Numbered from the stretch's first letter, positions 26,940-54,351 are shown. The stretch is DNA of 64,000 nt from Alphaproteobacteria bacterium (GCA_019650635.1 BOXE01000006.1:1176-65175); one strand, 5' to 3'. Notes: a model not told the origin generated them from the letters alone. Translations and numbers: made by a program.

Positions 26940-29243
26940 ATGAAAAATAGTAATGAAAATATAGTCCAAACCCTGGAGAAGCTTAGAAGAACTGAGCTTC
27001 TACTTCAAATATCAAGAAAAATTGCTGGACTTAAATCTTTAGAGGAGATTCTATGGACACTTATAGAATTCGTTACTAATGAGTTAGATGCAGATAGAGG
27101 AACATTATTTTTAAATGATAACGAAACAAATGAACTTTATTCAAGAGTTGCCAAGGGATTTGACTCGCGAAATAAAATTTTAAATAACGTTGGAATAGCA
27201 GGTGCAATTTTTCAAAACAAGTCTGGGGAAGTCATTCATGACGTTTATGCGACTCCCGTTTTAACAAAGAAGTTGATCAGGAAACAGGTTATAAGACAAA
27301 AAATATGATTTGTTGTCCAGTTAAAACTGTTGACGGACTGACAATAGGCGTTATTCAAGTTTTAAATAAAAAAAAAGGTAGATTTACAAAAGATAATCTT
27401 TTCTTTACAGAGTCAATTGCCACCCAAGCTGCTGTATCAATTCAAAATGCACAAAATACAGAACATTTTGAAAAAAAAAGAGCTAAAGAAATGGAGTTTA
27501 TAAGTATAGTTTCTGATGTAACAGCTGAAATCGATTTAGGAGCTTTACTTCAAAGAGTGATGGAAGAGGCAACACGAATGCTCAATGCTGACAGGGCTAC
27601 ATTATTTTTAAATGATGAAAAAACCAATGAATTATTTTCAAGGGTAGCTATGGGGGAAGGCATTGGTGAAATAAGACTTCCTAACACTGCTGGAATTGCA
27701 GGTTCGGTTTTTACTTCTGGTAAATCAATGAATATTCCTTACGCCTATGCTGATTTAAGATTTAATCCTTCATTTGATAAGCAGACAGGGTATTTTACTC
27801 GTTCGATTTTATGTGTACCTGTTGTGAATAAAGAAGGTAAGGTAATTGGTTGCACACAAGTTTTAAATAAGAGTGGTGGCAAATTTACAGATGAAGATGA
27901 ATCTAGGTTAAAGGCATTTACTCAACAAGTTGCAATTGCTCTTGAAAATGCCAAGCTTTTTGAAGATGTATCTAAATCTAGAAAGTATAATGAAAGTATG
28001 CTTTCTAGTATGTCTAACGGAGTTATAACAATTAACAGTGAAGAAGAAATTGTTACTTGTAACAAATCTGGATTAAAAATACTCCGAACTAAAGATTCAG
28101 ACATAATAAAAAAACAATCCAAAGATTTTTTTTCCGGAAATAAAAAATGGATATATGAGAAAATTAAGAGTGTTGGTGAATCAAAAGAACCAGAAATTAT
28201 TGTTGACGCTGAAATAGAGGTTTTCGATTATGAAACAGAAAAAGAGGAAAAAATATCAGTAAATTTGACAATACTCCCACTAATTAATGAAGATAGTGAC
28301 GGTAGAACGGATCAATCAGATAATTTTCTAGGTACTTTATTAATGTTTGAGGACATTTCTTCAGAAAAAAGAATGAAATCAACAATGTCTAGATATATGG
28401 ACCCTGGAATAGCAGATCAATTATTAGAGGATGGATCTGACATCATGGGTGGGCTAGAAACAACCGCTACTTTGTTGTTTTCTGATTTAAGAAGTTTTAC
28501 TACCATAACAGAGTCGTTGGGTGCTCAGGGTACTGTAAAATTATTGAATGAATATTTTGAAATAATGGTTGAATGCATATCAGAGCAGGGGGGGATGTTA
28601 GACAAATTTATTGGAGATGCAATAATGGCTGCATTTGGTCTTCCTATATCACATGAGGATGATGAAGATAGGGGTGTTAAAGCTGGTATCAATATGATCA
28701 AAAGATTATGGGAGTGGAACGAGCAAAGAGAAAAAGATGGAAAAGCCACCTGTTGATATGGGATTAGGATTAAATACGGACAAAATTGTGGCAGGAAATA
28801 TTGGATCACAAAAAAGAATGGATTACACGATGATTGGTGACGGTGTGAATTTAGCAGCACGTTTAGAAAGTGCATGCAAACAATATAGTGCAAGAATATT
28901 AATCAGTGACTATACATTTAAAAAACTAAAAGGTACTTATCGCATTAGGTATATAGATGATGTAGTTGTTAAAGGAAAAAACGAACCTATTGGTGTTCAT
29001 GAAGTTTTAGATTATCACAATGATAAAACTTTTCCGAATTTAATGGATGTGGTCAATCATTTTAATGAAGGTAGGAAACACTATAAAGGTGGAAGTTTTG
29101 AACAAGCTATTTCATCTTTTAATGAATGTCTAAAAGCAAATTCTCAAGATAACTTATCAAAAACATACATTGAGAGATGCAATTTATTAATAGATGAAAA
29201 ACCGACAGATTGGAATGGAGTTTGGGTAATGAAAAGCAAATGA
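26940..29243 (+). CDS. GAF-GAF-PAS class III adenylate cyclase with a TPR-like tail (CyaB1-like architecture). Two single-base frameshifts are present as assembled, near 27250-27300 and near 28740.
   Basis: GAF-A reads ...DADRGTLFLNDNETNELYSRVA...GYKTKNMICCPV...VLNKKKGRFTKDN. GAF-B reads ...NADRATLFLNDEKTNELFSRVA...TGYFTRSILCVPV...VLNKSGGKFTDEDE. A PAS-like segment (MLSSMSNGVITINSEEEIVTCNKSG) follows. The cyclase motifs are LLFSDLRSFTTITE, LDKFIGDAIMAAFG and MDYTMIGDGVNLAARLES. Confidence 0.85.
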
Positions 29244-30007: not shown

Positions 30008-31348
30008 ATGAAATTGTGGATAAGTAGTAATATGGGAAAATTTGTAATAGGGTGTTTTATTTTTTTGATTGGTGTTGGATCATTTGTATTCGCGCAAGAA
30101 GAAAAAGATGAGGTTATACCTTATAATCTAAAAGCCGCACTTAAGTCAGTTTTGAATAATCATAAAACTATATTGGCAACAAAAAGTGATATAGAGGCTG
30201 CTAAGTTAAGACTAAAACAATCCAGGGGTGGTTATTTTCCTTCGTTAGACGTTACAGCCAATTACGGACATGAAAATATTATAAAATATGGACCAGGCAA
30301 CAACACGCAATTGATGGCAAGGGACGCAACAGCAAAAATAACTCAAACAATTACAGATTTTGGTTTGACTAAATCAACAGTAGAAACTTCAAGATTATCA
30401 TTAAAACAAACACGAGCAACTGAGGCACAAATTAAAAATGACATTTTATTAAGAGCAATTTCAGCATACTTGAGAATTATTCAATCAAGGGAAAGTGTTC
30501 GATACGCAAGACAATCTGTTGCAAACATAAAAAAACAAACTGAATTGGAAGATGCAGCAGTAACTGCAGGAGGTGGACTTACTTCGGATGTTCTCCAAGC
30601 AAAAACTCAATTAGCTGGTGCTCAGGCACGTTTAATTCAGTTTGAAGGCGTATTAGCCACTTCTAGACATGAATTTGAATATGTTTTTAATTCATTTCCA
30701 GATAATTTAAATTCTTTGATCCTCCTTAAATCTGTTTTTGATAAATTACCTAAATCTTTAGAGGAGGCTGAAGAAATAACAATGAAAAATAATCCCTCAC
30801 TGATTGCAGCAAGAATCACAGAGGATATTGGTAAAGAGGCAATAAACACAGCTAAATCTTCTCTTTTTCCAACTGTTAAAGGGATAGTGAGTCATTCAGA
30901 AAAACAAGATTTTGGTGGTGTAGTAGGATTCAAAAGAGAAACCTCTGCAAAGTTAGATTTTGCATATCCATTAAATCTAAGTCTTTCGGAATACGCTGGT
31001 AAAGATGCAGCGGTTGAGTCTTATTTAGCAACATCTACAAGAATAAGAGATCAAGAAGATATGATTAAACAAATGTTAAGAACTACATGGGACGGATTAA
31101 AAACAGCTCAGCAAAATGCTCAATTTCTTACAAATCAGGCAAGAATCTCTGGTGAATTTTTAGAGCTTGCAAGACAAGAAAGACAGGCAGGAAACCGTAC
31201 TTTACTTGACGTTTTAGGGGGTGAAACTGCTCTAATTAATGCTCAAGCAGATGCGATTGCAGCACAAATTGAAGTTCTCATAAATAGTTACACTTTAATG
31301 AGTTTAATGGGGGGACTTTCAATTGAATCAATTGAATTTGTTGAATAA
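30008..31348 (+). CDS. TolC-family outer-membrane efflux/secretion protein (T1SS OMP, locus A).
   Basis: 446-aa ORF with a signal peptide (FIFLIGVGSFVFAQ) and two TolC-type repeat halves (…AAKLRLKQSRGGYFPSLDVTANYG…, …LINAQADAIAAQIEVLINSYTLMSLMG). Confidence 0.85.
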   Translation: MKLWISSNMGKFVIGCFIFLIGVGSFVFAQEEKDEVIPYNLKAALKSVLNNHKTILATKSDIEAAKLRLKQSRGGYFPSLDVTANYGHENIIKYGPGNNTQLMARDATAKITQTITDFGLTKSTVETSRLSLKQTRATEAQIKNDILLRAISAYLRIIQSRESVRYARQSVANIKKQTELEDAAVTAGGGLTSDVLQAKTQLAGAQARLIQFEGVLATSRHEFEYVFNSFPDNLNSLILLKSVFDKLPKSLEEAEEITMKNNPSLIAARITEDIGKEAINTAKSSLFPTVKGIVSHSEKQDFGGVVGFKRETSAKLDFAYPLNLSLSEYAGKDAAVESYLATSTRIRDQEDMIKQMLRTTWDGLKTAQQNAQFLTNQARISGEFLELARQERQAGNRTLLDVLGGETALINAQADAIAAQIEVLINSYTLMSLMGGLSIESIEFVE

Positions 31349-31404
31349 ATTAGGTCTTTTTAACTTTTAAAATAGTAGTATTTCGCCTATAGTTAAAACT
31401 GGAT

Positions 31405-41247: not shown

Positions 41248-42777
41248 TTATTTTTTTTGTTTAAATTGTATATATAGTCCCATTAGGAGTACAGCAAGAA
41301 TTGGACAAATACTTGCCATAGATAGAATACCAAAACCTTCAGTGGCGGATACAGCATTTCCTAGACCCAGACCCATAGCCAGAACAAGTGGTACGGTTAC
41401 CGGGCCGGTTGTGACTCCAGCGCTGTCCCAGGCGACATTAACAAATTCTTCAGTTGAAAAGTAAGTTAAAACAATTGCAAGAAGATAAAGTGGTATTAAA
41501 ACGGTTGCTAAGTCAAAAGCAAATACAATTTTTCCAACACCTAAGGCTATCCCAAATGCAACACCTCCAGCAACGCTATACATTAACATTGACTTTTTGA
41601 AAGCACCATTGGTAAGCTCTTGAACTGTCAAACCAAGAGCATTAAGTGCGGGCTCAGCAAGTGTTGCTCCAAATCCTAAGAGCCAAGCGAAAAGAATTAC
41701 TATAGTTAAACCCAATAATTCGTTATAAATTGGTGATACTTCACTTATTGGGACTTCCATAAAGGCAGCAGGAAGATTGGTTCCAGCTTGCCCACCTATA
41801 GCTCCTAAACCATATGTGAGTCCAATATTGAAGACACACATCCCAACAATGGACAAAGTTAACCCATAAGTTGTTATCATATTGTTAGGAAGTTTAGATC
41901 TAAGGATTACAAAAAGCACAATCATTAAAAATATCACAAGTGGAAGTATTGCTCGAACTCCTCCAATAATTTCAACAAACGGGGTTTGTGACCACTTAGA
42001 AACCTCTCCTATGGTCATATCTGAAGCCATACTAGTCGAAGCAATTATTTCCTCAACTGAGATTGTCTGAGAAACATGTATAGCAAGAATCAGAACAGCG
42101 ATAATTGGAAATAATGAAGCCATTGTAACGACGCCGAAACCAGAAAGAGATGAATCTCCTTTACCAGCTGATGCTGCAATTCCAATACCTAGTGATAGCA
42201 CAAGAGGTACAGTAACTGGTCCAGTTGTAACAGCACCACAATCCCAAGCTAATCCAAGAATAGTTCTTAAATCAGGATTACTCCATACATATGCAGTAAG
42301 AATTATTGTTGGTGCAAGAGCTGCATAAATCATAGGTTTTAGAGACCAACCTTTGACAAACCTTATTGTTCCAATGATGGCTGCTAGTCCAACACCAGCA
42401 CCGACCATTACAACTAAGGTTTCACTTCTATTGTTTAGTATCTCATAAAGATACGGTGCGTCCTGAGGATTTATTGACGAACCAAATGCTTTGAGTGCTC
42501 CAATAGCTGGTTCCGCATAAGTTACCCCCACCCCAAGTATTCCAATAATAATTAAAACAAGAACCATTGGTGCTTTTTTTGGTAATGTATCACCAATTAC
42601 ATTGCCAAATGGCATTAAACCGGTTTTAAGACCTTCCATAAAAATTGCCAGGCCTATTATTACTGCAATCAATCCTAGACAAATTGTTGTTGCTGAAGAG
42701 ATTGGTTGTCTTAAAATTAAAAGTTGAAATAGAAATAAATATGCTGCAAGTGGAACAACAGCTTTAATTTGTTCCAT
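41248..42777 (-). CDS. DUF1538 family polytopic membrane protein (internally duplicated).
   Basis: 509-aa ORF whose two halves each carry ...AWD(C/S)(G/A)(A/G)VTTGPVTVPLVL(S/A)(L/M)G(I/L)G. Confidence 0.7.
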   Translation of the reverse strand: MEQIKAVVPLAAYLFLFQLLILRQPISSATTICLGLIAVIIGLAIFMEGLKTGLMPFGNVIGDTLPKKAPMVLVLIIIGILGVGVTYAEPAIGALKAFGSSINPQDAPYLYEILNNRSETLVVMVGAGVGLAAIIGTIRFVKGWSLKPMIYAALAPTIILTAYVWSNPDLRTILGLAWDCGAVTTGPVTVPLVLSLGIGIAASAGKGDSSLSGFGVVTMASLFPIIAVLILAIHVSQTISVEEIIASTSMASDMTIGEVSKWSQTPFVEIIGGVRAILPLVIFLMIVLFVILRSKLPNNMITTYGLTLSIVGMCVFNIGLTYGLGAIGGQAGTNLPAAFMEVPISEVSPIYNELLGLTIVILFAWLLGFGATLAEPALNALGLTVQELTNGAFKKSMLMYSVAGGVAFGIALGVGKIVFAFDLATVLIPLYLLAIVLTYFSTEEFVNVAWDSAGVTTGPVTVPLVLAMGLGLGNAVSATEGFGILSMASICPILAVLLMGLYIQFKQKK

Positions 42778-42984
42778 AACTCTAGAAATTGTGTATGGGC
42801 TAAAGAGTAAGTGCCTTGGCAGGAGATACTTTAATTTTTTGAGGCTTTAGTGATTTTCCTTTAGTTGCCTTCGGAGTGAGAAGATTATAACTTAAAGATT
42901 TATGATTAATCTCTGATTCGTGAATATAATCTGAATATTTCATAATTTATCATAACATATTGTAGAAATTAATAAAATCTTTAT

Positions 42985-43444
42985 TCAACATGACTTGTTG
43001 ACTTCTCTAATCTGTAAAGAATCATGTTTTGTTATTTTTTTAATTATTTGATTCTCCGACTCTATAACCTCATCTATTTCATCATGAGAATAAAGTACAT
43101 TTTGAAACTCATTTCTTTTAGCAAGTTCTTTACATAAATTTAAAATTACTTTTGGGCGCTTTGAACCAGAATTAATTAGCTCATCAAGATTTTCTTTACT
43201 TATAGATATCAACTCTGTGGATTGACTTGAGTAATGTTGCGCTTCTGTTTTGTTGTAAAATTAAAGCCATTTCACCAAAAACCTCTCCATCTCTCATAGA
43301 TCCAACTTTTTTTCCATCAACTACTACATCAAGCGCTCCAGAAACTATCATGTAAGCTTTATCGCCCTTGTCGCCTTGATTAAAAAGCGTCTCGCCCTCT
43401 AACATCAAAACTTTTGTTGTTTTTCCGTGATTAATTTCTTTCAA
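42985..43444 (-). CDS. Stand-alone cyclic-nucleotide-binding (CAP/PKA-type) protein, with one frameshift near 43,212.
   Basis: It reads ...GDKAYMIVSGALDVVVDGKKVGSMRDGEVFGEMALILQQNRSAT (phosphate-binding cassette) and then a roughly 70-aa helical tail (42985-43212 ORF). Confidence 0.75.
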
Positions 43445-43881
43445 GAAAATATCCTTTGAGATAATCTATAGTGAATCTGAAGCGCTAAAGCTCTTATTAC
43501 GTTGGGAGAGTCGTGAGTTAGTTTTACAAGATCGGCTTTAGTAATTGGAAGTTTTTGGTTGTCGGATTTTCCTAATTCCTTTGACATTTCATTAATTACT
43601 TTATGAAGATCTATGTTAGAGGATAATAAAATAGCTTCCAAAGCCTTTCTTTTTATTTCCACAATTTCACTTGGTACAATTGCTTTTATACTTGCAGTTC
43701 TGTTTTCATTTAGGATTAAAGACAATTCTCCAAAGATTTCACCTGTTTCAATTTTTCCAATTTTTTTTCCTTCAATTTCTGCAACTAGTCCACCTGAAAT
43801 AACTAAAAAGGCTGTTTCACCTTTTTCACCCTCTCGAACAATATATTGATCTGGAAGAACTCTTATCTTTTTTAAACCCAT
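43441..43881 (-). CDS. Stand-alone cyclic-nucleotide-binding protein.
   Basis: 146-aa ORF reading ...REGEKGETAFLVISGGLVAEIEGKKIGKIETGEIFGELSLILNENRTASIKA. Its stop overlaps the next start. Confidence 0.8.
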   Translation of the reverse strand: MGLKKIRVLPDQYIVREGEKGETAFLVISGGLVAEIEGKKIGKIETGEIFGELSLILNENRTASIKAIVPSEIVEIKRKALEAILLSSNIDLHKVINEMSKELGKSDNQKLPITKADLVKLTHDSPNVIRALALQIHYRLSQRIFS

Positions 43882-43895
43882 TTAAACCTAATATT

Positions 43896-46266
43896 TTATT
43901 TAGAAGTTGCCACAAAAACACCATCCCAATCTTTTGGGGGAGGATACTTTTTATATTCATTAATTCGTTCCGTCATCATTTCATAGTAATCTTTCATTAA
44001 ATTTTTACAAAGTGTTTTTGCCTGAGTCATTTCCTCGATAGCATCTTTCCAATTTTGATTAAAATAGTGATTTAATACATTTTTGTGTTTTTTTTCAAGA
44101 TTTTTGAAATCAACACTATTTTTAAAACTTGGATCACCGAGCAAACAAAAAATTGATACAGCTTCTTTTTTTCCTTTTACTGCTAGCATATCAAGTTGAA
44201 GCGTAGCAAAAGTATCTTTAACAGCATCGTTTGTTTCTTGTCCAATAACTGTTTTAACTCCATAACCTTTTGATTGACCTTCAAGACGTGATGCTAAATT
44301 GACTGCGTCTCCAAGTACTGAATAGTCAAATCTTTGGTCTGATCCCATGTTTCCAACAACACAACCTCCAGTATTTAGTCCAATTCCAATTTTTAATTCC
44401 AAAAAATCTTTATTTTCTGACTTCGCTTCTTGCTCTCTGATATCGTTAAGTTCTTTCAGTGCTTTATGCATACTTAATGCTGCTTCACAAGAAACTTGCT
44501 CATGTTTATCAACATCTATAGGTGCATTCCAAAAAGCCATAATACAATCTCCCATATATTTATCGATTGTTCCGTTTTTATTTATGATTTCATTAGTAAG
44601 AGGAGTTAAAAATCTGTTTATAAGTTTTGTTAGGCCTTGAGGATCTGATTTAAAAGCTTCTGAAATTGTTGTAAATCCTCTTACATCACAAAAAAGAAAT
44701 GTCATTTTTTTTGTTTCTCCACCCAAAACTAATTTATCAGGATCTTCAGCTAATTGCTCTACTAAAGCAGGGGATAGATATTGAGAAAATGCACCTCTTA
44801 TTTGTTTTTTCTCATTGGCATCTCGTAAGTAGTTTGCAAAGGTGTTACTAAAATAAATTACAAAAGTTGTTACACCTGCAAAGGTTGGATCAAATAAAGT
44901 TTTATGCTCAGTAAATAACCTTACACTAATATAAAATGCAGAACTTATTATGGTTACAAGTAATGAAATATTTACAATTGGACCAAACCTTAATGCAGAC
45001 ACTGTGATAAATAATGCAAGCAAAATTGTAAAGAGTGCTTCATAAAATTTCATATTTGCACCAGATTTCAAAAAAGGTGATCCTGAAATTTTAACTTTGT
45101 TTTTTTCAATTATTGCTTCTTCTTCACTTAAACCTTTTTTTAATGCATCTTTATAAACTTTTTCAGAATTTTTTGTAGATGTATAATAAAGAATTGCTGA
45201 AATGACTGTATCAATGAGATTTGCATGAATTTCAACACCTGGCATTCTTTCATCGACTGGAGTGGGTCTAATATCCTTTAATCCAGTGGCCGATGTGCCT
45301 AATATACCAAGTTTTCCCTGTAATCTATCTTTGCCAACCCTTCCTTTAATTATATCCACTGCACTTACATAATACCTTGATTTACCTTCTTAACTTTTCC
45401 AGCATCTGAATCACCATAATAAATCCACACTCTACCATTCTCATCAGTGGAATGCAGCATTTCCAATAGCTTTAGTTTGAATTATTATTTCTTAATTCCC
45501 GTCAAACCTGTCCTAGTGGCAATACTATTTCTTGAAACGCAACCCTTATCATATCAAGCCCAAGAGTTGGTCTGATTTCACCTGCAACATTTGATATTAA
45601 AGGTACTCTTCTAATAATACCATCTGGTTCCTGTGCAACTGAAACTGTACCAGACCCAGAAGCAGCTTTTTCAAACTCTGTCACATTAGCAAGCAATCCA
45701 GGATAAGATATCAACCATTCCTTTGGATTTTTACCTTTGCCAACAAAAACTTTTACAGATGAATCGTTTATATCATTTCTGTTTGCATCACCTTCAACAT
45801 CCAAGCCAGAGTGCCCAATTACTACAGGAAAGTCATTCATAGCTTCCGTGGCTAAAAACTCATTAGAAGGAAGTTCACTTAATAGCTTGGCAATTTTTGG
45901 GTTTCTTTTTTCTAAATCTTGAGAAATTAAATCAGGTGAAGTTCTGTCTTTTTCTGCAAAGAGAACATCTAGACCTAAAACCAGCATGCCTGACTCTTTA
46001 GATTTTTTAAAAAGATCGGCAAGTACAGTTCTTGGCCATGGCCATTGACCGATTTCTCTGAGAGATTTTTCGTCAATATCTACTATTACGGAATAAGTTT
46101 GCCCATCTGTAGACCTTGGGAATTTTTTTTGAAGAACATCAAAATATTTTAGTCTTAGAACTTCTACTATTTCAGGATCAGCTATACGAATCAAACCAAA
46201 AAGAATAGCCATTACTAATGAAGCAATAGTAACAATAAGTCTAAAACTTAGCTTTAATTTTATCAT
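43896..46266 (-). CDS. CHASE2-domain membrane adenylate cyclase (class III). The frame is broken in 45,360-45,500 as assembled.
   Basis: 45502-46266 holds the N-terminal TM segment and CHASE2-like periplasmic domain (…VIVDIDEKSLREIGQWPWPR…). Across the gap it reads ...TDENGRVWIYY.... 43896-45359 contains …LGILGTSATGLKDIRPTPVDERMPGVEIHANLIDT…, TM segments, and the cyclase motifs FLFCDVRGFTTISE, IDKYMGDCIMAFW and FDYSVLGDAVNLASRLEG. Confidence 0.8.
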
Positions 46267-47987
46267 GGTTCTGCAAAACTATTACCAAGAGTTCTTATAA
46301 GTGGGTAAATAAAATACGTAATTAATCTTCTTTGCCCAACTCTAAACTTTCCTGAAACTTTCATTCCTGGCATTAAATTAAATCCTGGAGGAATATCTTT
46401 TAACTCATTTTCTGTTATTTGAGCCCTAGCCCTATAAAAATTTCCAGGTTTTCCATCGACATCTTTATCAATTGTGTCAGCAGAAACATAAATAAGCTTT
46501 CCTTTTAATTCACCATGTTTTTGTGCTGGAAGGGCATTAAGTTGAATTTTAACAGATGTATCCGGAATTAGTTTGCTAATATCAGAAGGATCAACATCAA
46601 AAACAGTTAATAACTCCACACCTGTTGGTACCAATGTAACAACACTTTTACCTTGTGTTATAACTGCTCCAGGATATAGAGAATGAAGGTCTAGAATCAT
46701 TCCGTCAGACGGCGCTCTTACCACGACATCAGTTTGTTGTCTTTCAAGTTTTTTAACATCCTCTTGTAGAGACATTCTTTGATCCTCTAATCCAACAAGC
46801 TCATCGTTTATTCCTCCAAAAAATTGGCTGTTATATTCTTTTCTATTAGATTTTAATTCGCTTAGTTTATTGCTAGTTTTTGTAAATTCTTTTTCTAAAG
46901 ACAACCTTTTGTTTTTTTCAGCTAAAACTTGTGACTCTGCTACAAGATCAAGTTCAAATAACTCCAACTTTGAATCTTCCAGCTGCTTTTGTATATCAAG
47001 TTGTTCTTTGATAAACTTTAAATCGTCTTCTGTGGAACCTATTTGCTGATCTAATGAAGCAATCTTTGCTAAATATTGGTCTTTTTTATCTTTAAAGATT
47101 CGGCTCTGTCTTTCGTCATTTGGATTTGCAACCGAGACACTATTCCTTAACAATGACTGCTTTTTTAGTCTATCAATTTTTGAATTTACAACTGAAAGCT
47201 GATAATCAAGTTTCATTTTATCAGCTCTTTGAAGTGTAGCATCGAAAGTTACGAGTGGGTCTCCTTGATTAACACTCTCACCTTTTTTTACAAGTATTTC
47301 TTTGACAACAGAATTATAGTTTGATTGCACCTCTACATTTGGGACAACGGTGGTAATCTTTCCAGAAGCAGAAATTGTAGTATCAATTTCGGAAATAGTG
47401 CCCCAAGTAATTAAAAATAAAACTAGGAAACCAAATGAATAAACTGACATTTTTACTGAACGTGGTACCTGCTTTGTTTTAATTCTATCAATGTCGTCAT
47501 CAAATTCATCTAATAACTCACTCATCATTTTTTTCTTTGATCTATTTTCTTTTTCCTCCTCAGTTAAAACTTCTTCTTGATCTTTGTTATTTTCATTTTC
47601 ATTTCCAGATTCAAAAGCATCCACAGATAATTTTTCGTTTGCATTTCTGGCATAGCTTGCAAGCTGCTGCATCATATTAAAAGCTGTTTGTGGAGAGTTT
47701 TTGAGATAACCTAATAAAGCATTTTGATCAATTTCTTTTACCGTTGTCTCAACTGTTGCTCTTGCCATTGCACTTCTTGGTTGTTTGTCAATTAATGCCA
47801 TTTCTCCAAATAACGCCCCTTTTTCAAGTATTGATAAAGTGACGTATTCGTCACCGTTGAATTTGCATACCTCTATTTTTCCTTTTACTATTTGATAGGC
47901 ATAGTCACCAACTTCACCTTCTCTAAAGAGTACATCACCAGCAGCTAAATTTCTTACAGCGGGTTGAATATTTTTTTTTTCGGCCAT
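46263..47987 (-). CDS. HlyD-family T1SS membrane fusion protein fused to an N-terminal cyclic-nucleotide-binding domain, locus B.
   Basis: 574-aa intact ORF. Residues ~10-115 read ...GDVLFREGEVGDYAYQIVKGKIEVCKF...LEKGALFGEMALIDKQPRSAMARA. A TM segment (VYSFGFLVLFLITWGTI), a lipoyl/barrel and coiled-coil region, and ...MPGMKVSGKFRVGQRRLITYFIYP follow. Confidence 0.85.
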   Translation of the reverse strand: MAEKKNIQPAVRNLAAGDVLFREGEVGDYAYQIVKGKIEVCKFNGDEYVTLSILEKGALFGEMALIDKQPRSAMARATVETTVKEIDQNALLGYLKNSPQTAFNMMQQLASYARNANEKLSVDAFESGNENENNKDQEEVLTEEEKENRSKKKMMSELLDEFDDDIDRIKTKQVPRSVKMSVYSFGFLVLFLITWGTISEIDTTISASGKITTVVPNVEVQSNYNSVVKEILVKKGESVNQGDPLVTFDATLQRADKMKLDYQLSVVNSKIDRLKKQSLLRNSVSVANPNDERQSRIFKDKKDQYLAKIASLDQQIGSTEDDLKFIKEQLDIQKQLEDSKLELFELDLVAESQVLAEKNKRLSLEKEFTKTSNKLSELKSNRKEYNSQFFGGINDELVGLEDQRMSLQEDVKKLERQQTDVVVRAPSDGMILDLHSLYPGAVITQGKSVVTLVPTGVELLTVFDVDPSDISKLIPDTSVKIQLNALPAQKHGELKGKLIYVSADTIDKDVDGKPGNFYRARAQITENELKDIPPGFNLMPGMKVSGKFRVGQRRLITYFIYPLIRTLGNSFAEP

Positions 47988-47993
47988 TTTTTG

Positions 47994-50165
47994 TTACCCG
48001 GCCTTCTTTAAAGATTTAATTTTGTTTTCAACACCTAAAATAGACATTTGCTTATTATACGTTTGACCAAAATAGCCTGAAATTTGTCTTAATTCTTCAA
48101 AAGAACCTTGTTGAGATATTTTTCCTTTTTCAAGCACAAAGATTTTATTACATAGTCGAAGGTGCCAAACTCTGTTTGACACTATAATTATTGTTCTACC
48201 AAGAGCAATATCTGATAGTGCATCGTATAATTTTATTTCACTGTCAACGTCAAAACCTGTGAAAGCATCATCAAGTATCATAATACGAGGGTTTCTAATA
48301 AGTGCTCTAGCAATTGCTAGTTTTTGTCTTAAGCCAGTTGCAAGATTTGTAGCATTTTCTTCTAAGAATGTTTCATATCCATCAGGATAGGACTCAATTT
48401 CTTCATGTGCGAAAACTTTTTTGGCAGCCCAAGTTATTCTGTCCATAGAGGAATTTGGCATTGCACTAGCTATTGTTTCCCTTATTGTTCCAGGAAAAAA
48501 ATAACTATCCGTTCCAACTAATGAAACTTGTGATCTTACATGACTCAGGTCCAATAAACGTAGATCTATATTATCAAGAGCTACGATTCCAGCTTGCGGT
48601 CTATATAAACCTTGAATTAGTTTTGCAATGGTACTTTTCCCACAGCCACTTTTACCAGTAATACCAATTATCTGTCTTGGATTAATTTCAATATCAATAT
48701 CATTTAATACTTTTGTGTTGTCGTCGTACCCAAACTCAACATTTTTAAAACTAACCTGTCCCATTAATTGAGGTTTTTGGCCTCTGACAGTTGTTTCGGA
48801 GTTTGCATCCACTATTCCTGATATGATCTGAAGGGATTGAACTAATTTTGTTATTTCTGTTTTTAGCGTAACTAGATCAATTATTGGCTTTGAAACTCTG
48901 CCGGCAAGCATATTAAAACCTACTAAAATTCCAGCTGAAAGAGATCCAGAAAATACAAGATGCACCCCGACAAAAATAACCATTGCAGTCATAAGTTGAT
49001 TTATAGTTGATGAAATGTTGTTTAAAACTGCTGACTTTTTTTGCATTTCTTCATTTGCAATAATATAATTTGCTTCCAAATCTCTCCACTGATCTTTCAA
49101 ATTAGGTTCAAGAGCAAGTCCCTTTACATTCTCAATTCCGTTTACAGCAACAGAAATAAATTCTTGTCGTTTTGATTCAGCCTTACTTAAACCAGCGAGA
49201 GAATCTCTTTGTTTTTTTGAGTAAAACATTGATGCTAAAGCTCCTAAAATACTGAATGAAAACACAACAATAAATAGTAATGGACTATAAAAAAATAGAA
49301 TCGGAACAAAAACAAGTAAACTAATTGAGTCTAGTGCTGTTGAGAAAACTTTTTGAGTCAGAAGGCTTTTGATCTGAGATATTTGTCCCGTGAATCTCAA
49401 AAAGGTAGCTGATTCTTTATGAAACCTTTGCATTGGTAAAGCAATTAATTTTTCAAAAACTTTAACTGAAAGTTTGGCTTCAACTTTTTGTGAGAAAAAA
49501 TCAAGAAGATATGATTTTAAATACCCAAGTATTCCATTAAATACATACGCAACAACTACACCTGAAGTTATAACATATAAAGTTGAATAAGCTTCATAGT
49601 TTACAACCTTATCCAAAACCAACATCATGAAAACAGCTGGTATGACTGCAAAAATATTTAAAATTAAAGCTACGATTACAACCTGAACCATAACAGATTT
49701 GTTCCTAAATGACTCACCAATTAACCATCCAATTTTTAATTCGCTGTCTTCTTCAAATTTTTTAAGCTTGGCTTTCAAAAGAATAACTTCTCCATCCCAT
49801 CCTTTTTTTAATTCTTTTAAATTTATTTGTTGGGGTTTGGGACTGGTAACACCAGTATCAAGGCATAAAACTGACTTGTCATCGTCTTTTTCACCTTGAA
49901 TGACTCTTAAAGCTATTATGTACCTTCCATTTTTAAGCCTTAAAATTTGTTGTTTTTTTGATAAGAGCTTTATTAGTTCCTTTTCGCTGATTTTGGTTGC
50001 TTTTGCTTTTAAATCAAAGGATTGAGCTAAGTCACACATTTCAGAGGTTCTAAGCTCTCTATCTTCAATTTGAAATCTTTCTGGGATATCATTCGGACCA
50101 ATATGAACACCTAGTTGTCTTGCAACTAGAATAATTGATTTTTGAGAACCGCGCATCGCTTCCAT
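47994..50165 (-). CDS. T1SS ABC exporter of HlyB type with an N-terminal C39-like (non-catalytic) domain, locus B. The NBD catalytic motifs are non-canonical.
   Basis: 723-aa intact ORF. The N-terminal ~130 aa align to the HlyB CLD pattern, without the Cys of the C39 'CG..C' motif. Walker A is GKSGCGKST. The Q-loop position reads LVGTDSY, the signature LATGL, Walker B IMILDDA and the H-loop IIVSNRV. Confidence 0.85.
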   Translation of the reverse strand: MEAMRGSQKSIILVARQLGVHIGPNDIPERFQIEDRELRTSEMCDLAQSFDLKAKATKISEKELIKLLSKKQQILRLKNGRYIIALRVIQGEKDDDKSVLCLDTGVTSPKPQQINLKELKKGWDGEVILLKAKLKKFEEDSELKIGWLIGESFRNKSVMVQVVIVALILNIFAVIPAVFMMLVLDKVVNYEAYSTLYVITSGVVVAYVFNGILGYLKSYLLDFFSQKVEAKLSVKVFEKLIALPMQRFHKESATFLRFTGQISQIKSLLTQKVFSTALDSISLLVFVPILFFYSPLLFIVVFSFSILGALASMFYSKKQRDSLAGLSKAESKRQEFISVAVNGIENVKGLALEPNLKDQWRDLEANYIIANEEMQKKSAVLNNISSTINQLMTAMVIFVGVHLVFSGSLSAGILVGFNMLAGRVSKPIIDLVTLKTEITKLVQSLQIISGIVDANSETTVRGQKPQLMGQVSFKNVEFGYDDNTKVLNDIDIEINPRQIIGITGKSGCGKSTIAKLIQGLYRPQAGIVALDNIDLRLLDLSHVRSQVSLVGTDSYFFPGTIRETIASAMPNSSMDRITWAAKKVFAHEEIESYPDGYETFLEENATNLATGLRQKLAIARALIRNPRIMILDDAFTGFDVDSEIKLYDALSDIALGRTIIIVSNRVWHLRLCNKIFVLEKGKISQQGSFEELRQISGYFGQTYNKQMSILGVENKIKSLKKAG

Positions 50166-50197: not shown

Positions 50198-50235
50198 AAA
50201 AAAAAAACCCCCTTAGAAACTCTAAGAGGGTTTTT
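50198..50235 (-). terminator. Rho-independent terminator, bidirectional in shape and strongest on the minus strand.
   Basis: The minus-strand RNA is CCCUCUUAGA-GUU-UCUAAGGGGG followed by about 10 U. It lies about 20 nt after the stop of the 50256-51360 gene and upstream of the ABC gene. Confidence 0.75.
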
Positions 50236-50255: not shown

Positions 50256-51360
50256 TTAGACTACCTCACCACCGTCATTTGGATCGTCTGGAGGTGGAGG
50301 CATATCTGCGGGCATATCACCTGGCATTGGCCCAGGATCTCCTGGAGGAGGTCCTTCTGGACCTTGATGTGCTCCTGCATCATCCATGTGTGATTCATGT
50401 CAGCCTATCTCCAGGAGGAGGTTTTCTCCGGAGGAGGCCCCCTTCACCAGCACCAAAACCGTGGATCGTTAGGATCGTGTTGTGGCATATCACCTGGAGG
50501 AGGTCCGCCAGCGGCCCACCTTCAAAATAAGGGGTCCCCTTCACCACCAGGAGGTGGCGGAGGCATTCCGTCTCCATCCATATCCATGCCTGGAGGCGGT
50601 CCGTCTGGTCCCATGCTGGTCCCTGGTCCACCCCCATATCACCTGGAGGCGGTCCGTCTGGTCCCATACCACCTGGTCCCATGTCACCCGGAGGCGGTCC
50701 GTCTGGTCCCATTCCACCTGGCCCCATATCACCTGGAGGCGGTCCGTCTGGTCCCATACCACCTGGTCCCATGTCACCTGGAGGCGGTCCGTCTGGTCCC
50801 ATAGCACCTGGCCCCATGTCACCTGGAGGCGGTCCGTCTGGTCCCATTCCACCTGGCCCCATATCACCTGGAGGCGGTCCGTCTGGTCCTTGCCCAGCCA
50901 TATCACCTGGAGGAGGTCCGCCTTCACCTGGAGGCGGTCCTTCTGGTCCTGGCCCTGCCATATCACCTGGAGCCCCTGGTAAATCACCCGGAGGCGGAGG
51001 TGGGGGTGCATCAGCACCTGGTCCCATGTCTGGAACAGGAGGCATATCTGGACCAAAATCAGAGCATGGTCCGTCAGGACATCCATCTAAATGAGTATCC
51101 ATAACCTCAGAAACAGCGTCAAAAGCGTCTGCTGCACTTGCACCAGGGTTTTCAGCCATAAAATCGTTGTATGCACCTTGAGCGGTGTCAGCCATGTTCA
51201 TCATAACTTCCGGCGGCATTCCACCATCAGTCATAACGTCCATTGCTGCAGTCATACATTCGTCAAAACTACCTCCACCCTGCATCACGTCAAATGCAGC
51301 TGAACCTGCGGCATCACCGAGATCCATTAGTTCAGGAGGCAGGTTAGTAAATTCTGCCAT
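50256..51360 (-). CDS. Met/Asp/Pro/Gly-rich repeat protein with no FecR or RTX domain. The C-terminal third is frame-broken as assembled.
   Basis: The ORF 50395-51360 has a Met-rich N-terminus (MAEFTNLPPELMDLGD...DECMTAAMDVMTDGGMPPEVMMNMADTAQ) and then at least 6 copies of GPDGPPPGDMGPGGM. After the frame changes, the sequence continues ...GPDGPPPGMDMDGDGMPPPPPGGEGDP... and ends ...PPPPDDPNDGGEVV* with a stop at 50256-50258. Confidence 0.65.
50590..50890 (-). repeat. Tandem 45-nt coding repeat of about 6-7 units, with two alternating variants that give a roughly 90-nt super-period.
   Basis: The plus-strand unit is ggaggcggtccgtctggtcccat(a/t)(c/g)cacctgg(t/c)cccat(g/a)tcacct, repeated head to tail. 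Confidence 0.85.
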
Positions 51361-51477: not shown

Positions 51478-52803
51478 TTATTTTTCAATTGTTTCAAAAT
51501 TTAGAATTCCGCATAATTTTAATAATTCGAAGGATGAAATAATTAGTTGATATTGTGCGTTTACTAAATTTGATTCAGAATCTGTTAGTTCTTTTTGCGC
51601 ATCTAGAATTTCTAATGTTGTTCTGGTACCAACACTTGCTTCTTTTGTTACTCCCTCAACTGCCATTAAATTTGACTCAACTGAAACCTCAAGAGAATTT
51701 ATACTTGATTTTGAACTTTGTATTTTCTTCCATGCCGAATTAATTTGAAATTGTAAGTCAAGTTTTTTGTCTCAATTGATTTAATAACAGTAAGAGCAGA
51801 ATCTTTTGATTTTTCTAAATTCAAAAAATTATGTCCTTTGTTAAATAATGGAACTGTAACATTGGCAGTTACTGAGTATGAATCTGTTCTTTCAACTGTT
51901 CTTGAGGAGTCAAGTGATTTTCCTACTGAACCAGACAAAGAAAATTCCGGTGCAAAGTTTAAATTATTTTTTCTTACATCCAATTTTGAGTTCATAAGTT
52001 GTAATTTTAATTTTCTATAATCTGGGTTCTTTTCTAAACCTGTTTTTATTGAATCTTCCAGAGATTTTGGAAGTTTTGGTATTTGACCAAATTTTAACCA
52101 ATCTTTTGGATTGGCGTCGACAATTTGCGCATTATTAGAATCAAACCATTTAATATCTGGAGCTCTACCAACAATTGTTTTAAAATCAGAAATTGAAATT
52201 TCTAAGTTATTTTCAGCTTCTATTCTCTTTGAAGTAGCACCTGCTAATCTTGCTTTAGCTTGAAAAACGTCAGTTTTAGTTACGTCTTTAAATTCGAATC
52301 GTTTTTCAGCAGCATTTAGTTTTTTTTCAAGAGTATCTTCGTTCCTTTTTGAAACATCTAAAAGAAAATAATCCTTTAAAACAGTATAATAAGCTCTACT
52401 AGCTTTAAATAAAACATCTTGGACTGTGGCGTAAAAGGTTAACTTTGCGATGTTCAAGTTATTTTTAGCTTGCTTAAAAATTTATAGCTTTTGTGTAACC
52501 TAAAGGTTGAGATAAATCTACGTCGAAAGTGGTTGGGTTGAAAGCGCTATCATTAATTCGAGATGTATCAGGATTGCTTTTTGAAATTTTCCTTCCTTGT
52601 GAAGCTGAAAAGTCAAGGGATGGTAGAAAATCTGTTTTGGAAATTTTTAAATCTTTTTCTGAAATTTTTAATTCTGTTTTACTTTTTTCAATGTCCGGAT
52701 AAAACTTATATGCATCTTTCAAAACATCGGAGAGTTCTTCAGAAATTGAAATAATAGGAAAAAATATCGATGCTAAGATAACCAGATTTAATTTGGATTT
52801 CAC
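51478..52803 (-). CDS. TolC-family outer-membrane protein, locus B. Two frame breaks are present as assembled.
   Basis: The fragments 52474-52803 (signal peptide MKSKLNLVILASIFFPIISIS, ...FLPSLDFSASQG), 51699-52457 and 51478-51666 (…ILDAQKELTDSESNLVNAQYQLIISSFELLKLCG) are collinear with TolC. Confidence 0.8.
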
Positions 52804-52931
52804 TTCTAAATTTCCATTTCCTCAAAATTAAACTAATATTAAAGTAACTTCGAATTAACAACAACATTTAAAAGAAAAATTTAAATTTTTCGCTTTTAAT
52901 TCACCAATTCATATATTATAAGCAGATTAAT

Positions 52932-53008
<77 letters not shown>

Positions 53009-54274: not shown

Positions 54275-54351
54275 TGGCGACCCCGGTACGATTCGAACGT
54301 ACGACCTACTGCTTAGAAGGCAGTTGCTCTATCCAGCTGAGCTACGGGGCC
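54275..54351 (-). tRNA. tRNA-Arg (anticodon UCU).
   Basis: The reverse complement reads GGCCCCGTAGCTCAGCTGGATAGAGCAACTGCCTTCTAAGCAGTAGGTCGTACGTTCGAATCGTACCGGGGTCGCCA. The anticodon arm is ACTGC-cTTCTaa-GCAGT. Confidence 0.9.

What the first reader, a model, noticed from the sequence alone, without database searches (positions are those of the whole stretch)
46263..47987. HlyD-family MFP with an N-terminal cyclic-nucleotide-binding domain on the cytoplasmic side
Residues ~10-115 of the intact 574-aa ORF form a CAP/PKA-type domain. Its phosphate-binding cassette is complete (FGEMALIDKQPRSAMARA). A single TM helix and the periplasmic HlyD body follow. In HlyD the short cytoplasmic N-terminus is the part that senses substrate and triggers TolC recruitment. 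A ligand-binding domain at exactly that position is a plausible allosteric gate for channel assembly. The next gene, which is translationally coupled, makes the ligand.
Basis: partly seen in the sequence, partly recalled or inferred. Interest (0 to 1): 0.8.

Follow-up and report, generated by a model that had tools for sequence, protein, structure and literature searches.

The report
cAMP-sensor domain on secretion adaptor
A marine bacterium's type I protein-secretion machine carries a cyclic-nucleotide sensor domain fused to the cytoplasmic end of its membrane adaptor, next to a gene for an adenylate cyclase; this real and conserved but unstudied design suggests that a second messenger switches secretion on or off directly at the machine.

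Summary
ORF 46263-47987 (-) encodes an intact 574-aa protein. It has a canonical cyclic-nucleotide-binding (CNB) domain (Pfam E=1e-19, confident AF2 model, only CRP/PKG folds by Foldseek), a disordered acidic linker, one TM helix and a complete HlyD-type type I secretion adaptor.

The fusion is not a sequencing artefact. The 120 listed near-identical homologues and about 42 divergent 50%-identity clusters (26-39% identity) have the same architecture. The ligand-contacting motif G-E...R-x-A is kept in 39 of 43.

The next gene overlaps by ATGA and is a CHASE2-sensor class IIIb adenylate cyclase. In this window five single-base deletions break it. Relatives carry it intact, so the breaks are probably assembly errors. 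This cyclase adjacency is limited to the window's own clade.

The part conserved across lineages is a module of three elements:
- a lysine/arginine-free, Met/Gly/Pro/Asp-rich repeat protein followed by a terminator hairpin;
- a HlyB-like ABC transporter with a degenerate C39 domain;
- the CNB-adaptor.

Best reading: a tethered cAMP sensor that modulates secretion. Ligand identity and the gating effect are inferred, not shown. The only precedent found (HetC) carries the domain on the ABC subunit and bound ppGpp, not cAMP.

Verdict: new variant of a known kind, moderately interesting.

The parts
46263..47987 (-). CNB-MFP: 574-aa HlyD-type type I secretion adaptor with an N-terminal cyclic-nucleotide-binding domain
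   Evidence: Intact ORF. Pfam cNMP_binding plus HlyD_3, and TIGR01843 above its cut-off. AF2 mean pLDDT 86.7. Same architecture in the 120 listed close homologues and in 43 of 43 aligned sequences (this protein plus 42 divergent representatives).
47613..47960 (-). CNB domain proper (residues ~10-125): beta-roll, PBC helix, and B and C helices
   Evidence: pLDDT 88-96 with strands 11-86 and helices 62-67, 88-97 and 99-125. Foldseek top 50 are all CRP/CAP, GlxR, Bd1971 or PKG CNB domains. phmmer against PDB gives E=2e-20 to PKG.
47757..47810 (-). Phosphate-binding cassette FGEMALIDKQPRSAMARA (residues 60-77)
   Evidence: G61 is invariant. E62 is kept in 41/43, R71 in 40/43 and A73 in 40/43 representatives. 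The full G-E...R-x-A motif is present in 39/43.
47493..47612 (-). Acidic, disordered linker (residues ~126-165) between the CNB domain and the canonical HlyD N-terminus
   Evidence: pLDDT below 50 for residues 120-165. 17 D/E against 6 K/R in 46 residues; length varies from 14 to 72 across the family.
47394..47462 (-). Single transmembrane helix (residues ~176-198), preceded by the conserved EF..D.D.I juxtamembrane motif
   Evidence: Hydropathy peak at 177-199 with basic residues before it. AF2 helix 176-198. Motif conserved in alignment A2.
47994..50165 (-). HlyB-like ABC transporter (723 aa) with a degenerate C39-like domain (CLD); its stop lies 6 nt before the MFP start
   Evidence: Pfam Peptidase_C39, ABC_membrane and ABC_tran; best NCBIfam match TIGR01846. 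Closest solved structure is HlyB 7SGR/8DCK (E=7e-26). HlyB His83 aligns with Tyr, and there is no Cys in residues 1-12. Always directly upstream of CNB-MFPs in other lineages.
50203..50235 (-). 15-bp GC-rich hairpin followed by a T-run, between the putative substrate gene and the ABC gene (terminator/attenuator-like)
   Evidence: An equivalent strong hairpin plus T-run follows the substrate-like gene in L003, L010, L014, L015, L016, L018, L020, L021 and L030.
50256..51360 (-). Putative cargo: an acidic Met/Gly/Pro/Asp-rich repeat protein (PPGDMGPGGMGPDGP units) with no signal peptide; frameshifted in the window near its 3' end
   Evidence: The intact 396-aa relative (L003) has 70 D+E, 0 K+R and 47 Met. 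A similar protein sits upstream of the ABC gene in nearly all distant loci. No Pfam match.
51496..52806 (-). TolC-family outer-membrane protein of this system (split into pieces in the window)
   Evidence: Pfam OEP and TIGR01844 on both fragments. A 444-aa intact relative maps to 52806-51496.
43896..46266 (-). CHASE2-sensor, membrane-bound class IIIb adenylate cyclase; its start overlaps the MFP stop (ATGA); broken by five 1-nt deletions in this window
   Evidence: Pfam CHASE2 plus Guanylate_cyc. Intact at 789 aa in L001, L002, L004, L008 and L011. Deletions mapped. The catalytic domain is closest to P. aeruginosa CyaB 3R5G (E=2e-33), with GTIDKYMGDC and FDYSVLGD.VNLASRLE conserved.
43441..43881 (-). 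Stand-alone CNB protein 1 (146 aa), PBC FGELSLILNENRTASIKA
   Evidence: Pfam cNMP_binding E=5e-15. Conserved in the close clade.
42984..43444 (-). Stand-alone CNB protein 2 (155 aa in relatives; frameshifted here)
   Evidence: tblastn of the L001 protein. Deletions at 43235-43149. Pfam in relatives.
40573..42943 (-). DUF1538 membrane protein, a P-II-like protein (118 aa) and a 99-aa protein that by eye resembles the P-II-like one; they complete the co-directional gene string
   Evidence: Pfam DUF1538 E=7e-108 and P-II E=3e-7. The same trio lies beside the CNB-MFP system in L015 and L021.

Best explanation
This is the periplasmic adaptor (membrane fusion protein) of a HlyB/HlyD/TolC-type type I secretion system. 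A canonical cyclic-nucleotide-binding (CNB) domain has been added to its cytoplasmic N-terminus through a flexible acidic tether. The proposed mechanism is as follows. The CHASE2-sensor adenylate cyclase encoded immediately downstream (or, in other lineages, cyclases elsewhere in the genome) raises cAMP in response to an extracytoplasmic cue. cAMP binds the phosphate-binding cassette of the CNB domains hanging beneath the ABC/adaptor complex. The resulting rearrangement of the B and C helices changes what the tethered domain docks onto, most plausibly the C39-like or nucleotide-binding domains of the ABC partner, or the adaptor's own juxtamembrane segment. In this way secretion of the dedicated cargo, a lysine/arginine-free Met/Gly/Pro/Asp-rich repeat protein encoded upstream, is switched after translation. 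What is shown: the domain architecture, the topology, the fold, conservation of the ligand-contacting residues, the HlyB-like partner, the conserved cargo-ABC-adaptor module, and the adenylate-cyclase neighbour. What is inferred: that cAMP is the ligand, that binding changes secretion, the direction of that effect, and the docking partner.
For: The architecture and fold are established. The fusion is conserved in the 120 listed 90%-identity clusters, each covering the full length. It is also found in 42 further representatives at 26-39% identity, all with cNMP_binding plus HlyD_3. In GTDB genomes it occurs in several marine alphaproteobacterial lineages, Magnetococcales and possibly Scalindua. 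The ligand-contacting residues are retained across that divergence: G61 in 43/43, E62 in 41/43, R71 in 40/43 and the full motif in 39/43. That pattern argues for selection on nucleotide binding. In the window's clade the cAMP module is packed tightly with the MFP gene: an ATGA overlap with a CHASE2 cyclase, two stand-alone CNB proteins, and gaps of 14 nt or less or overlaps between genes. The cyclase catalytic domain is most similar to the adenylate cyclase CyaB (E=2e-33). It carries the Lys of the 'DKxxGD' motif and a Ser at the class IIIb Thr position (assigning these as adenine-specifying residues rests on my knowledge of class III cyclases). A review states that the cytoplasmic parts of T1SS adaptors are essential for substrate recognition and complex assembly (PMC8277102). 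A CNB domain on a related exporter (HetC) is required for function in vivo (PMC10986499). The window also holds a second cyclase (GAF-PAS) next to a second T1SS.
Against: No binding or secretion data exist, and none can be produced with these tools. The linker is long, variable and predicted disordered, so no defined allosteric path can be drawn. Most distant CNB-adaptor loci have no neighbouring cyclase. The HetC CNB domain did not bind cAMP and bound ppGpp with a Kd of about 59 uM. Four of 43 family representatives deviate from the G-E...R-x-A motif: three are clearly degenerate and one (P0123) differs only by Ala73 to Gly. Ligand binding may therefore not be needed in every member. In this window the cyclase, TolC, the cargo gene and CNB2 are frame-broken. 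If those breaks are real rather than assembly errors, the system is decaying in this strain.
Confidence: 0.5

Rival explanations
1. The CNB-fold domain regulates the secretion system but senses a ligand other than cAMP, for example ppGpp or a guanine nucleotide as reported for HetC, cGMP, or another small molecule.
For: HetC's N-terminal cNMP domain showed no stabilisation by cAMP and bound ppGpp with a Kd of 59 uM. The PBC has Ser after the Arg (RSA), as in both CRP and PKG, so base specificity cannot be read from the sequence. Most distant loci have no adjacent cyclase.
Against: The Gly-Glu...Arg-Ser-Ala cassette, which contacts the cyclic phosphate and ribose in cAMP/cGMP receptors, is conserved in 39/43 representatives. 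The closest folds are cAMP-bound CRP-family and Bd1971 domains. An adenylate-type cyclase overlaps the gene in this clade.
Confidence: 0.2
2. The CNB domain is a ligand-independent structural module, for example one that pairs adaptor protomers through its long C-helix or serves as a docking platform for cargo or the ABC partner. In this reading it has no signalling role.
For: A 30-residue C-helix like the CRP dimerisation helix is predicted. Three of 43 representatives have clearly degenerate cassettes yet keep the domain.
Against: There is strong conservation of exactly the ligand-contacting residues at 26-39% overall identity. A cyclase and further CNB proteins are clustered with the gene.
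Confidence: 0.12
3. The ABC/adaptor/TolC system exports the cyclic nucleotide itself, acting as a cAMP efflux pump, and the CNB domain captures the substrate.
For: It sits next to a cyclase. My recollection is that TolC-dependent cAMP efflux has been reported in E. coli; I did not check this here.
Against: The ABC partner is HlyB-like with a C39-like domain, typical of protein exporters. A dedicated cargo-like protein gene with a terminator hairpin is conserved upstream in all lineages. A CNB domain on a floppy tether is poorly placed to hand a ligand to the transporter.
Confidence: 0.04
4. The cyclase and the CNB proteins form a Pycsar-like anti-phage signalling system that merely lies next to a secretion operon.
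For: PADLOC models PycC and PycTIR match the cyclase domain (95.7 bits) and the CNB domains.
Against: The matches cover only the shared cyclase and CNB folds. No TIR or pore-forming effector domain is present. The cyclase has an extracytoplasmic CHASE2 sensor and is closest to the adenylate cyclase CyaB. The CNB domain is fused to the adaptor in lineages that have no neighbouring cyclase.
Confidence: 0.03
5. The 574-aa ORF is an artefact: a sequencing or assembly error fused a CNB gene to a separate HlyD gene.
For: The window clearly carries many indel errors or frameshifts elsewhere.
Against: The same full-length architecture is found in Illumina single-cell genomes, MAGs and long-read contigs. 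The 120 listed near-identical clusters are 572-579 aa in all but one case (one is 623 aa), and 42 divergent representatives match too. The linker aligns without a frame change.
Confidence: 0.01

Closest known systems
HlyD of the E. coli haemolysin type I secretion system (HlyB-HlyD-TolC)
   Same: It is a member of the TIGR01843 type I HlyD subfamily. It has a single N-terminal TM helix and a lipoyl, long alpha-hairpin and beta-barrel periplasmic body. Its partner is an ABC transporter with a degenerate C39-like domain whose closest solved relative is HlyB. A TolC gene and a cargo gene followed by a hairpin lie upstream.
   Different: It carries about 155 extra N-terminal residues (a CNB domain plus an acidic linker) in front of the normal short cytoplasmic segment. 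The presumed cargo has no RTX nonapeptide repeats.
HetC of Nostoc PCC 7120 (a peptidase-containing ABC exporter with an N-terminal cNMP domain; PMC10986499)
   Same: A CNB-fold domain is placed on the cytoplasmic side of a T1SS/PCAT-type exporter, and it is required for function in vivo.
   Different: In HetC the domain is on the ABC subunit, upstream of an active C39 peptidase, and no adaptor gene is nearby. It bound ppGpp and not cAMP. Here the domain is on the adaptor, the ABC has an inactive C39-like domain, the cassette is canonical, and an adenylate cyclase is adjacent.
CRP/CAP-family and Bd1971-type bacterial cAMP receptor domains
   Same: They are the best structural matches (T. thermophilus CAP 4EV0, GlxR, Mtb CRP, and the Bd1971 cNMP-EAL enzyme). 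They share the cassette and the long C-helix.
   Different: The output is neither a DNA-binding nor an enzymatic domain. It is a disordered tether leading to a transmembrane secretion adaptor.
TIGR03896 'bacteriocin-type transport-associated protein' (stand-alone cyclic-nucleotide-binding proteins named for their association with bacteriocin-type transport)
   Same: CNB domains are associated with HlyD/ABC peptide-export gene clusters. There are weak matches to the MFP N-domain and to CNB1 (E=3e-7 and 2e-6).
   Different: Scores are far below the family cut-off (30 against 161 bits), so neither protein is a member. Those are separate soluble proteins and are not fused to the adaptor.
P. aeruginosa CyaB and other class IIIb membrane adenylate cyclases
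   Same: The neighbouring cyclase's catalytic domain is closest to CyaB (3R5G, E=2e-33) and has the conserved motifs.
   Different: The sensor module is CHASE2 with TM segments. CyaB's own sensor module was not examined here.

Membership tests
HlyD-type type I secretion adaptor (NCBIfam TIGR01843) | Sequence score above the curated family cut-off | tested here: met
   219.9 bits against a cut-off of 208.65.
HlyD-type type I secretion adaptor (NCBIfam TIGR01843) | Single N-terminal TM anchor with a cytoplasmic N-terminus, and a periplasmic lipoyl, alpha-hairpin and beta-barrel body | tested here: met
   Hydropathy and positive-inside residues. AF2 helix 176-198, long helices 251-419 and beta domains. 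Foldseek matches to EmrA, MacA and HlyD 5C21/5C22.
HlyD-type type I secretion adaptor (NCBIfam TIGR01843) | Encoded with an ABC exporter and a TolC-family protein | tested here: met
   The ABC gene is 6 nt upstream and TolC is further upstream. ABC adjacency holds in all related loci.
HlyD-type type I secretion adaptor (NCBIfam TIGR01843) | Supports secretion of a cargo protein | not testable with these tools
   Needs a secretion assay.
Cyclic-nucleotide-binding domain (Pfam PF00027; CAP/PKA type) | Profile match above the gathering threshold | tested here: met
   70.4 bits against 27.5, E=1.2e-19. Found in 43/43 family representatives.
Cyclic-nucleotide-binding domain (Pfam PF00027; CAP/PKA type) | Eight-stranded beta-roll with a PBC helix and B/C helices | tested here: met
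   AF2 pLDDT 88-97. Foldseek top 50 are all CNB domains.
Cyclic-nucleotide-binding domain (Pfam PF00027; CAP/PKA type) | Phosphate-binding cassette with Gly-Glu and Arg-[Ser/Thr]-Ala | tested here: met
   FGEMALIDKQPRSAMARA. The motif is conserved in 39/43.
Cyclic-nucleotide-binding domain (Pfam PF00027; CAP/PKA type) | Binds cAMP or cGMP | not testable with these tools
   Needs ITC, DRaCALA or nanoDSF. The HetC precedent shows that the fold alone does not guarantee binding.
HlyB-type ABC with a C39-like domain (CLD), as opposed to an active C39 peptidase (PCAT) | C39 fold present but catalytic Cys/His lost | tested here: met
   Pfam Peptidase_C39 at 26 bits. The alignment to HlyB puts Tyr at HlyB His83, and residues 1-12 (MEAMRGSQKSII) contain no Cys. 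The CLD definition is taken from PMC8277102.
Class III (IIIb) adenylate cyclase, for the downstream gene | Catalytic-domain match with the metal-binding Asp pair, the Lys of DKxxGD, Ser/Thr, and the Asn/Arg of NxxxR | tested here: met
   Pfam Guanylate_cyc E=5e-20. The alignment to CyaB 3R5G shows FCDVRGFT, GTIDKYMGDC and DYSVLGD.VNLASRLE. Assigning these residues to roles rests on my knowledge of class III cyclases.
Class III (IIIb) adenylate cyclase, for the downstream gene | Intact reading frame in this window | tested here: not met
   Five 1-nt deletions relative to SAG contig L008 split the gene at 45389-45530. It is intact in L001, L002, L004, L008 and L011.
cNMP-domain PCAT (HetC-like) | CNB domain fused to the ABC subunit upstream of an active C39 peptidase | tested here: not met
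   The ABC has no cNMP_binding match and has a degenerate C39 domain. The CNB domain is on the adaptor.
Pycsar anti-phage system | Cyclase paired with a CNB effector that carries a TIR or membrane-disrupting domain | tested here: not met
   PADLOC hits cover only the cyclase and CNB folds, and there is no TIR domain. The small CNB proteins are 146 and 155 aa with a helical tail.
RTX cargo proteins | GGxGxD nonapeptide repeats (Pfam HemolysinCabind) in the cargo | tested here: not met
   The upstream repeat protein has no Pfam match. RTX repeats do occur in the cargo of the second T1SS in the window.

The most novel reading that the evidence does not exclude
The module defines a previously unrecognised class of T1SS that is gated by a second messenger after translation. 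An extracytoplasmic signal read by a CHASE2 cyclase is converted into cAMP. The cAMP binds sensor domains tethered to the adaptor protomers and thereby licenses or blocks export of a new family of lysine/arginine-free, methionine-rich, intrinsically disordered proteins in abundant marine Alphaproteobacteria.
Probability: 0.3. Interest if true: 0.75.

Novelty: new variant of a known kind. Interest (0 to 1): 0.55.

Why it matters
Type I secretion is usually described as controlled by transcription and triggered by the substrate. Direct small-molecule control of the machine itself is almost undocumented. HetC (2024) was the only case found here, and there the sensor sits on the ABC subunit. A ligand-binding domain on the adaptor's cytoplasmic end would give a handle on how that poorly understood region takes part in substrate engagement and channel assembly. 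It would be experimentally tractable: a soluble domain of about 130 residues, obvious point mutants and a cargo encoded next door. The system appears in many marine metagenome assemblies, including Tara data, and its presumed cargo, an acidic Met-rich protein with no Lys or Arg, has no known function. The module may therefore matter for the ecology of surface-ocean bacteria.

Tried and rejected
1. Fusion by sequencing error. Rejected: the architecture recurs in independent Illumina, SAG, MAG and long-read assemblies.

2. Real pseudogenisation of the cyclase. Considered, because the window's cyclase, TolC, cargo, CNB2 and DUF1538 genes are frame-broken. The breaks are clustered single-base deletions relative to an Illumina SAG at 94% identity. 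Essential genes elsewhere in the window (secD/F, uvrA) are shattered as well. Assembly error is the more likely cause, but this cannot be proven without reads.

3. Alternative genetic code. The first break in the cyclase is a TGA, but it is followed by TAA stops in the same frame, so this was rejected.

4. rRNA or a hypervariable island as the cause of the GC peak at 32-34 kb. Rfam found only three tRNAs. The GC peak is Gly-rich FecR/RTX coding sequence.

5. Pycsar-like defence. Only domain-level matches were found.

6. The first search for related loci attempt, with the 43-sequence alignment, failed for lack of a conserved stretch. A 12-sequence alignment worked.

7. Literature searches for a CNB domain together with HlyD, an adaptor or T1SS found no description of this fusion.

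8. A neighbour-joining tree of the HlyD bodies placed the fusions together, but with a few CNB-less proteins interspersed. It is too crude to decide between a single origin with losses and several gains.

9. The lineage was not established.

Full report
**What is there**

The ORF at 46263-47987 on the minus strand is intact and encodes 574 residues.
- Pfam places a cyclic-nucleotide-binding (CNB) domain at residues 12-97 (E=1.2e-19) and HlyD_3/HlyD_D23 at about 409-535. NCBIfam's type I HlyD model is passed above its curated cut-off.
It lines up with the FGExAL..PR[ST]A cassettes of PKG, PKA and CRP-family receptors.
- There is one hydrophobic segment (about 177-199), preceded by basic residues, so the first ~175 residues are cytoplasmic.
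- An AlphaFold2 model built on 43 family sequences is confident for the CNB domain (pLDDT 88-96) and for the TM helix and periplasmic body (above 90). It gives pLDDT below 50 for residues 120-165.
- The N-terminal model retrieves only CNB domains from the PDB: T. thermophilus CAP, GlxR, M. tuberculosis CRP, the Bd1971 cNMP-EAL enzyme and PKG.
- The whole model retrieves EmrA, MacA and HlyD adaptors.

**Not an artefact**

The window is full of reading-frame breaks. secD/F and uvrA at 5.7-12 kb are in pieces. Within the cluster, the TolC, cargo, cyclase, CNB2 and DUF1538 genes are also interrupted. Against the closest public relative, an Illumina single-cell contig (L008, 94% DNA identity), the breaks are clustered single-base deletions. 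Five fall within 150 bases of the cyclase gene. Related long-read 'pilon' contigs show the same kind of damage in other genes. I read these as assembly errors, although only reads could prove it.

The CNB-adaptor ORF itself is untouched, and its architecture is reproduced in three sets of homologues:
- all 120 listed close homologues, which cover the full length and are 572-579 aa in all but one case;
- 42 further 50%-identity representatives at 26-39% identity, all scoring for cNMP_binding and HlyD_3;
- about twenty GTDB species genomes.

A gene fusion created by a sequencing error is excluded.

**How the fusion is built**

CNB-less HlyD proteins align to this protein only from residue ~150-165 onwards. 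One example is the second HlyD in this same window, at 39300-40571. The family keeps the juxtamembrane EF..D.D.I motif just before the TM helix. The CNB domain and linker are therefore an addition in front of a complete adaptor, not a replacement of its cytoplasmic segment. The linker is acidic here (17 D/E in 46 residues). Across the family it varies from 14 to 72 residues.

**Selection on the ligand site**

Across the 43 representatives, G61 is invariant. E62, R71 and A73 are each kept in 40-41. The whole G-E...R-x-A motif is present in 39. Of the four exceptions, three have clearly degenerate cassettes and one (P0123) differs only by Ala73 to Gly. Retention of exactly these residues at about 30% overall identity argues that nucleotide binding is functional in most members.

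**The surrounding system**

On the minus strand the gene order is as follows:
- TolC (52806-51496);
- an acidic repeat protein (51360-50256);
- a 15-bp hairpin with a T-run (50235-50203);
- an ABC transporter (50165-47994);
- the CNB-adaptor;
- a CHASE2-class III cyclase (46266-43896);
- two stand-alone CNB proteins;
- a DUF1538 membrane protein, a P-II-like protein and a 99-aa protein.

Several details bear on the interpretation.
- The ABC's closest solved relative is HlyB. It has the C39-like fold but no Cys among its first 12 residues, and a Tyr where HlyB has His83. It is therefore a non-proteolytic CLD-type transporter of the kind that exports unprocessed proteins.
- The adaptor's stop overlaps the cyclase start (ATGA), and the ABC stop is 6 nt before the adaptor start.
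- The cyclase catalytic domain is closest to the P. aeruginosa adenylate cyclase CyaB (E=2e-33) and keeps the FxDxxGFT, DKxxGD and NxxxRLE motifs. From general knowledge of class III cyclases, this points to ATP as the substrate.

**What is conserved elsewhere**

In the window's own clade (71-100% adaptor identity) the whole string from ABC to the 99-aa protein is conserved, and the cyclase is a single 789-aa gene.

In distant carriers only the ABC-adaptor pair is constant. These carriers are SAR116, several Rhodospirillaceae, Magnetovibrio, Nisaea, UBA4588 and Magnetococcales. The DNA downstream of the adaptor holds unrelated genes and usually no cyclase. Three partial exceptions were seen:
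- UBA4588 has cyclase-domain genes and the DUF1538-PII trio a few kb upstream.
- One SAR116 locus has a cyclase domain 4.5 kb away.
- A Bradyrhizobiaceae contig has a HlyD, cut by the contig end, followed by a 43%-identical CHASE2 cyclase.

So 'the next gene makes the ligand' describes this clade and not the family.

Unexpectedly, nearly every locus has a similar gene directly upstream of the ABC. It encodes an extremely acidic Gly/Ala/Pro/Met/Asp repeat protein with essentially no lysine or arginine (0 K+R against 70 D+E and 47 Met in the 396-aa relative). Each such gene is followed by a strong hairpin and a T-run. This is the likely dedicated cargo. I recall that the substrate-terminator-transporter layout resembles the hlyA-hlyB arrangement, but I did not check this here.

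**Mechanism**

A review notes that the cytoplasmic regions of T1SS adaptors are essential for substrate recognition and assembly and are structurally little known (PMC8277102). Given the floppy tether, I favour a tethered-sensor model over a rigid relay. In this model cAMP binding repositions the B and C helices and changes whether the domain docks on the ABC's cytoplasmic domains or on the adaptor's juxtamembrane segment. That in turn permits or blocks cargo engagement or TolC recruitment. In this clade the input would be the CHASE2 cyclase, which reads a periplasmic or external cue. The two small CNB proteins and the P-II-like proteins may connect the same signal to the DUF1538 transporter. 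DUF1538 proteins were reported as a Na+/H+ antiporter in Halomonas (PMC5484666). None of the steps from ligand to secretion is shown.

**Rivals**

- HetC of Nostoc has a cNMP domain on the ABC subunit that is essential in vivo. That domain did not respond to cAMP and bound ppGpp at about 59 uM. A different ligand is therefore the main rival.
- A purely structural role is possible, but it fits poorly with the conserved cassette.
- A cAMP efflux pump fits poorly with the HlyB-like transporter and the conserved cargo gene.
- A Pycsar-like defence module fits poorly because no effector domain is present.

**Novelty and score**

Full-text searches found no description of a CNB-adaptor fusion. The source names that could be retrieved call these proteins simply 'HlyD family' or 'hemolysin D'. 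The CNB domain is a promiscuous module already known on channels, kinases, an EAL enzyme and ABC exporters, so its appearance on a new output is not astonishing. Still, it gives a concrete, testable case of second-messenger control acting on a T1SS component, in apparently widespread marine bacteria, linked to an odd new cargo family.

I rate it a new variant of a known kind, with interest 0.55.

Noticed in passing
window 50256-51360 (-); L003 6549-7739; L010 1793-2845; L015 6679-7668; L016 4891-6615; L018 6155-7060; L021 5497-7553: A family of extremely acidic, Met/Gly/Pro/Asp/Ala-rich repeat proteins with virtually no Lys or Arg (for example 0 K+R, 70 D+E and 47 Met in 396 aa). They have no signal peptide and no Pfam match. 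One sits directly upstream of the CLD-ABC gene in almost every CNB-adaptor locus, across lineages. It is probably the cargo, and its function is unknown.
   Followed up: partly
window 50203-50235 (-); the equivalent intergenic regions of L003, L010, L014, L015, L016, L018, L020, L021 and L030: A strong GC-rich hairpin followed by a T-run lies between the cargo-like gene and the ABC gene in every lineage examined. It looks like a terminator or attenuator that would set the cargo-to-transporter expression ratio.
   Followed up: partly
window 4.9-12 kb, 42.8-45.6 kb, 50.2-52.8 kb and elsewhere: Many genes, including secD/secF, uvrA, the cyclase, TolC and DUF1538, are broken by clustered single-base deletions relative to an Illumina SAG contig at 94% identity. 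The pattern suggests an error-prone long-read assembly rather than pseudogenes.
   Followed up: partly
window 30008-40571 (+): A second, complete T1SS lies back to back with the first: TolC (446 aa), two large FecR-domain plus RTX-repeat proteins (31405-37654, frameshifted, up to 54% GC), a PrtD-type ABC without a C39-like domain, and a 423-aa HlyD without a CNB domain.
   Followed up: partly
window 27305-29243 (+): A second class III cyclase with GAF and PAS sensor domains (split in the window) sits just upstream of the second T1SS. The 27-53 kb stretch therefore holds two cyclases, three CNB domains and two T1SSs.
   Followed up: no
window 40573-42943 (-); L015 3927-6298; L021 1922-4298: A DUF1538 membrane protein, a P-II-like protein and a ~98-aa protein (which by eye resembles the P-II-like one) accompany the CNB-adaptor T1SS in three separate lineages. 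This hints at a functional link between this putative transporter module and the secretion/cAMP module.
   Followed up: no
window 30-52.8 kb; tRNA-Pro 52932-53008, tRNA-Arg 54275-54351: The two-T1SS region has a higher G+C content (33-54%) than its flanks (23-28%) and ends at a tRNA-Pro gene. This could mark an old island, or it could simply reflect Gly/Pro/Ala-rich coding sequence.
   Followed up: no
L026 268-3733 (Bradyrhizobiaceae MAG contig): A HlyD gene, its N-terminus cut by the contig end, is followed directly by a CHASE2 cyclase 43% identical over its full length to the window's cyclase. CNB-domain genes are nearby. The adaptor-cyclase pairing may therefore exist outside the window's clade.
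   Followed up: no
family representatives P0144, P0159, P0231 (and P0123, minor): A few CNB-adaptors have degenerate phosphate-binding cassettes, with the Glu and/or Arg lost. They are candidates for ligand-independent variants and could serve as natural controls.
   Followed up: no
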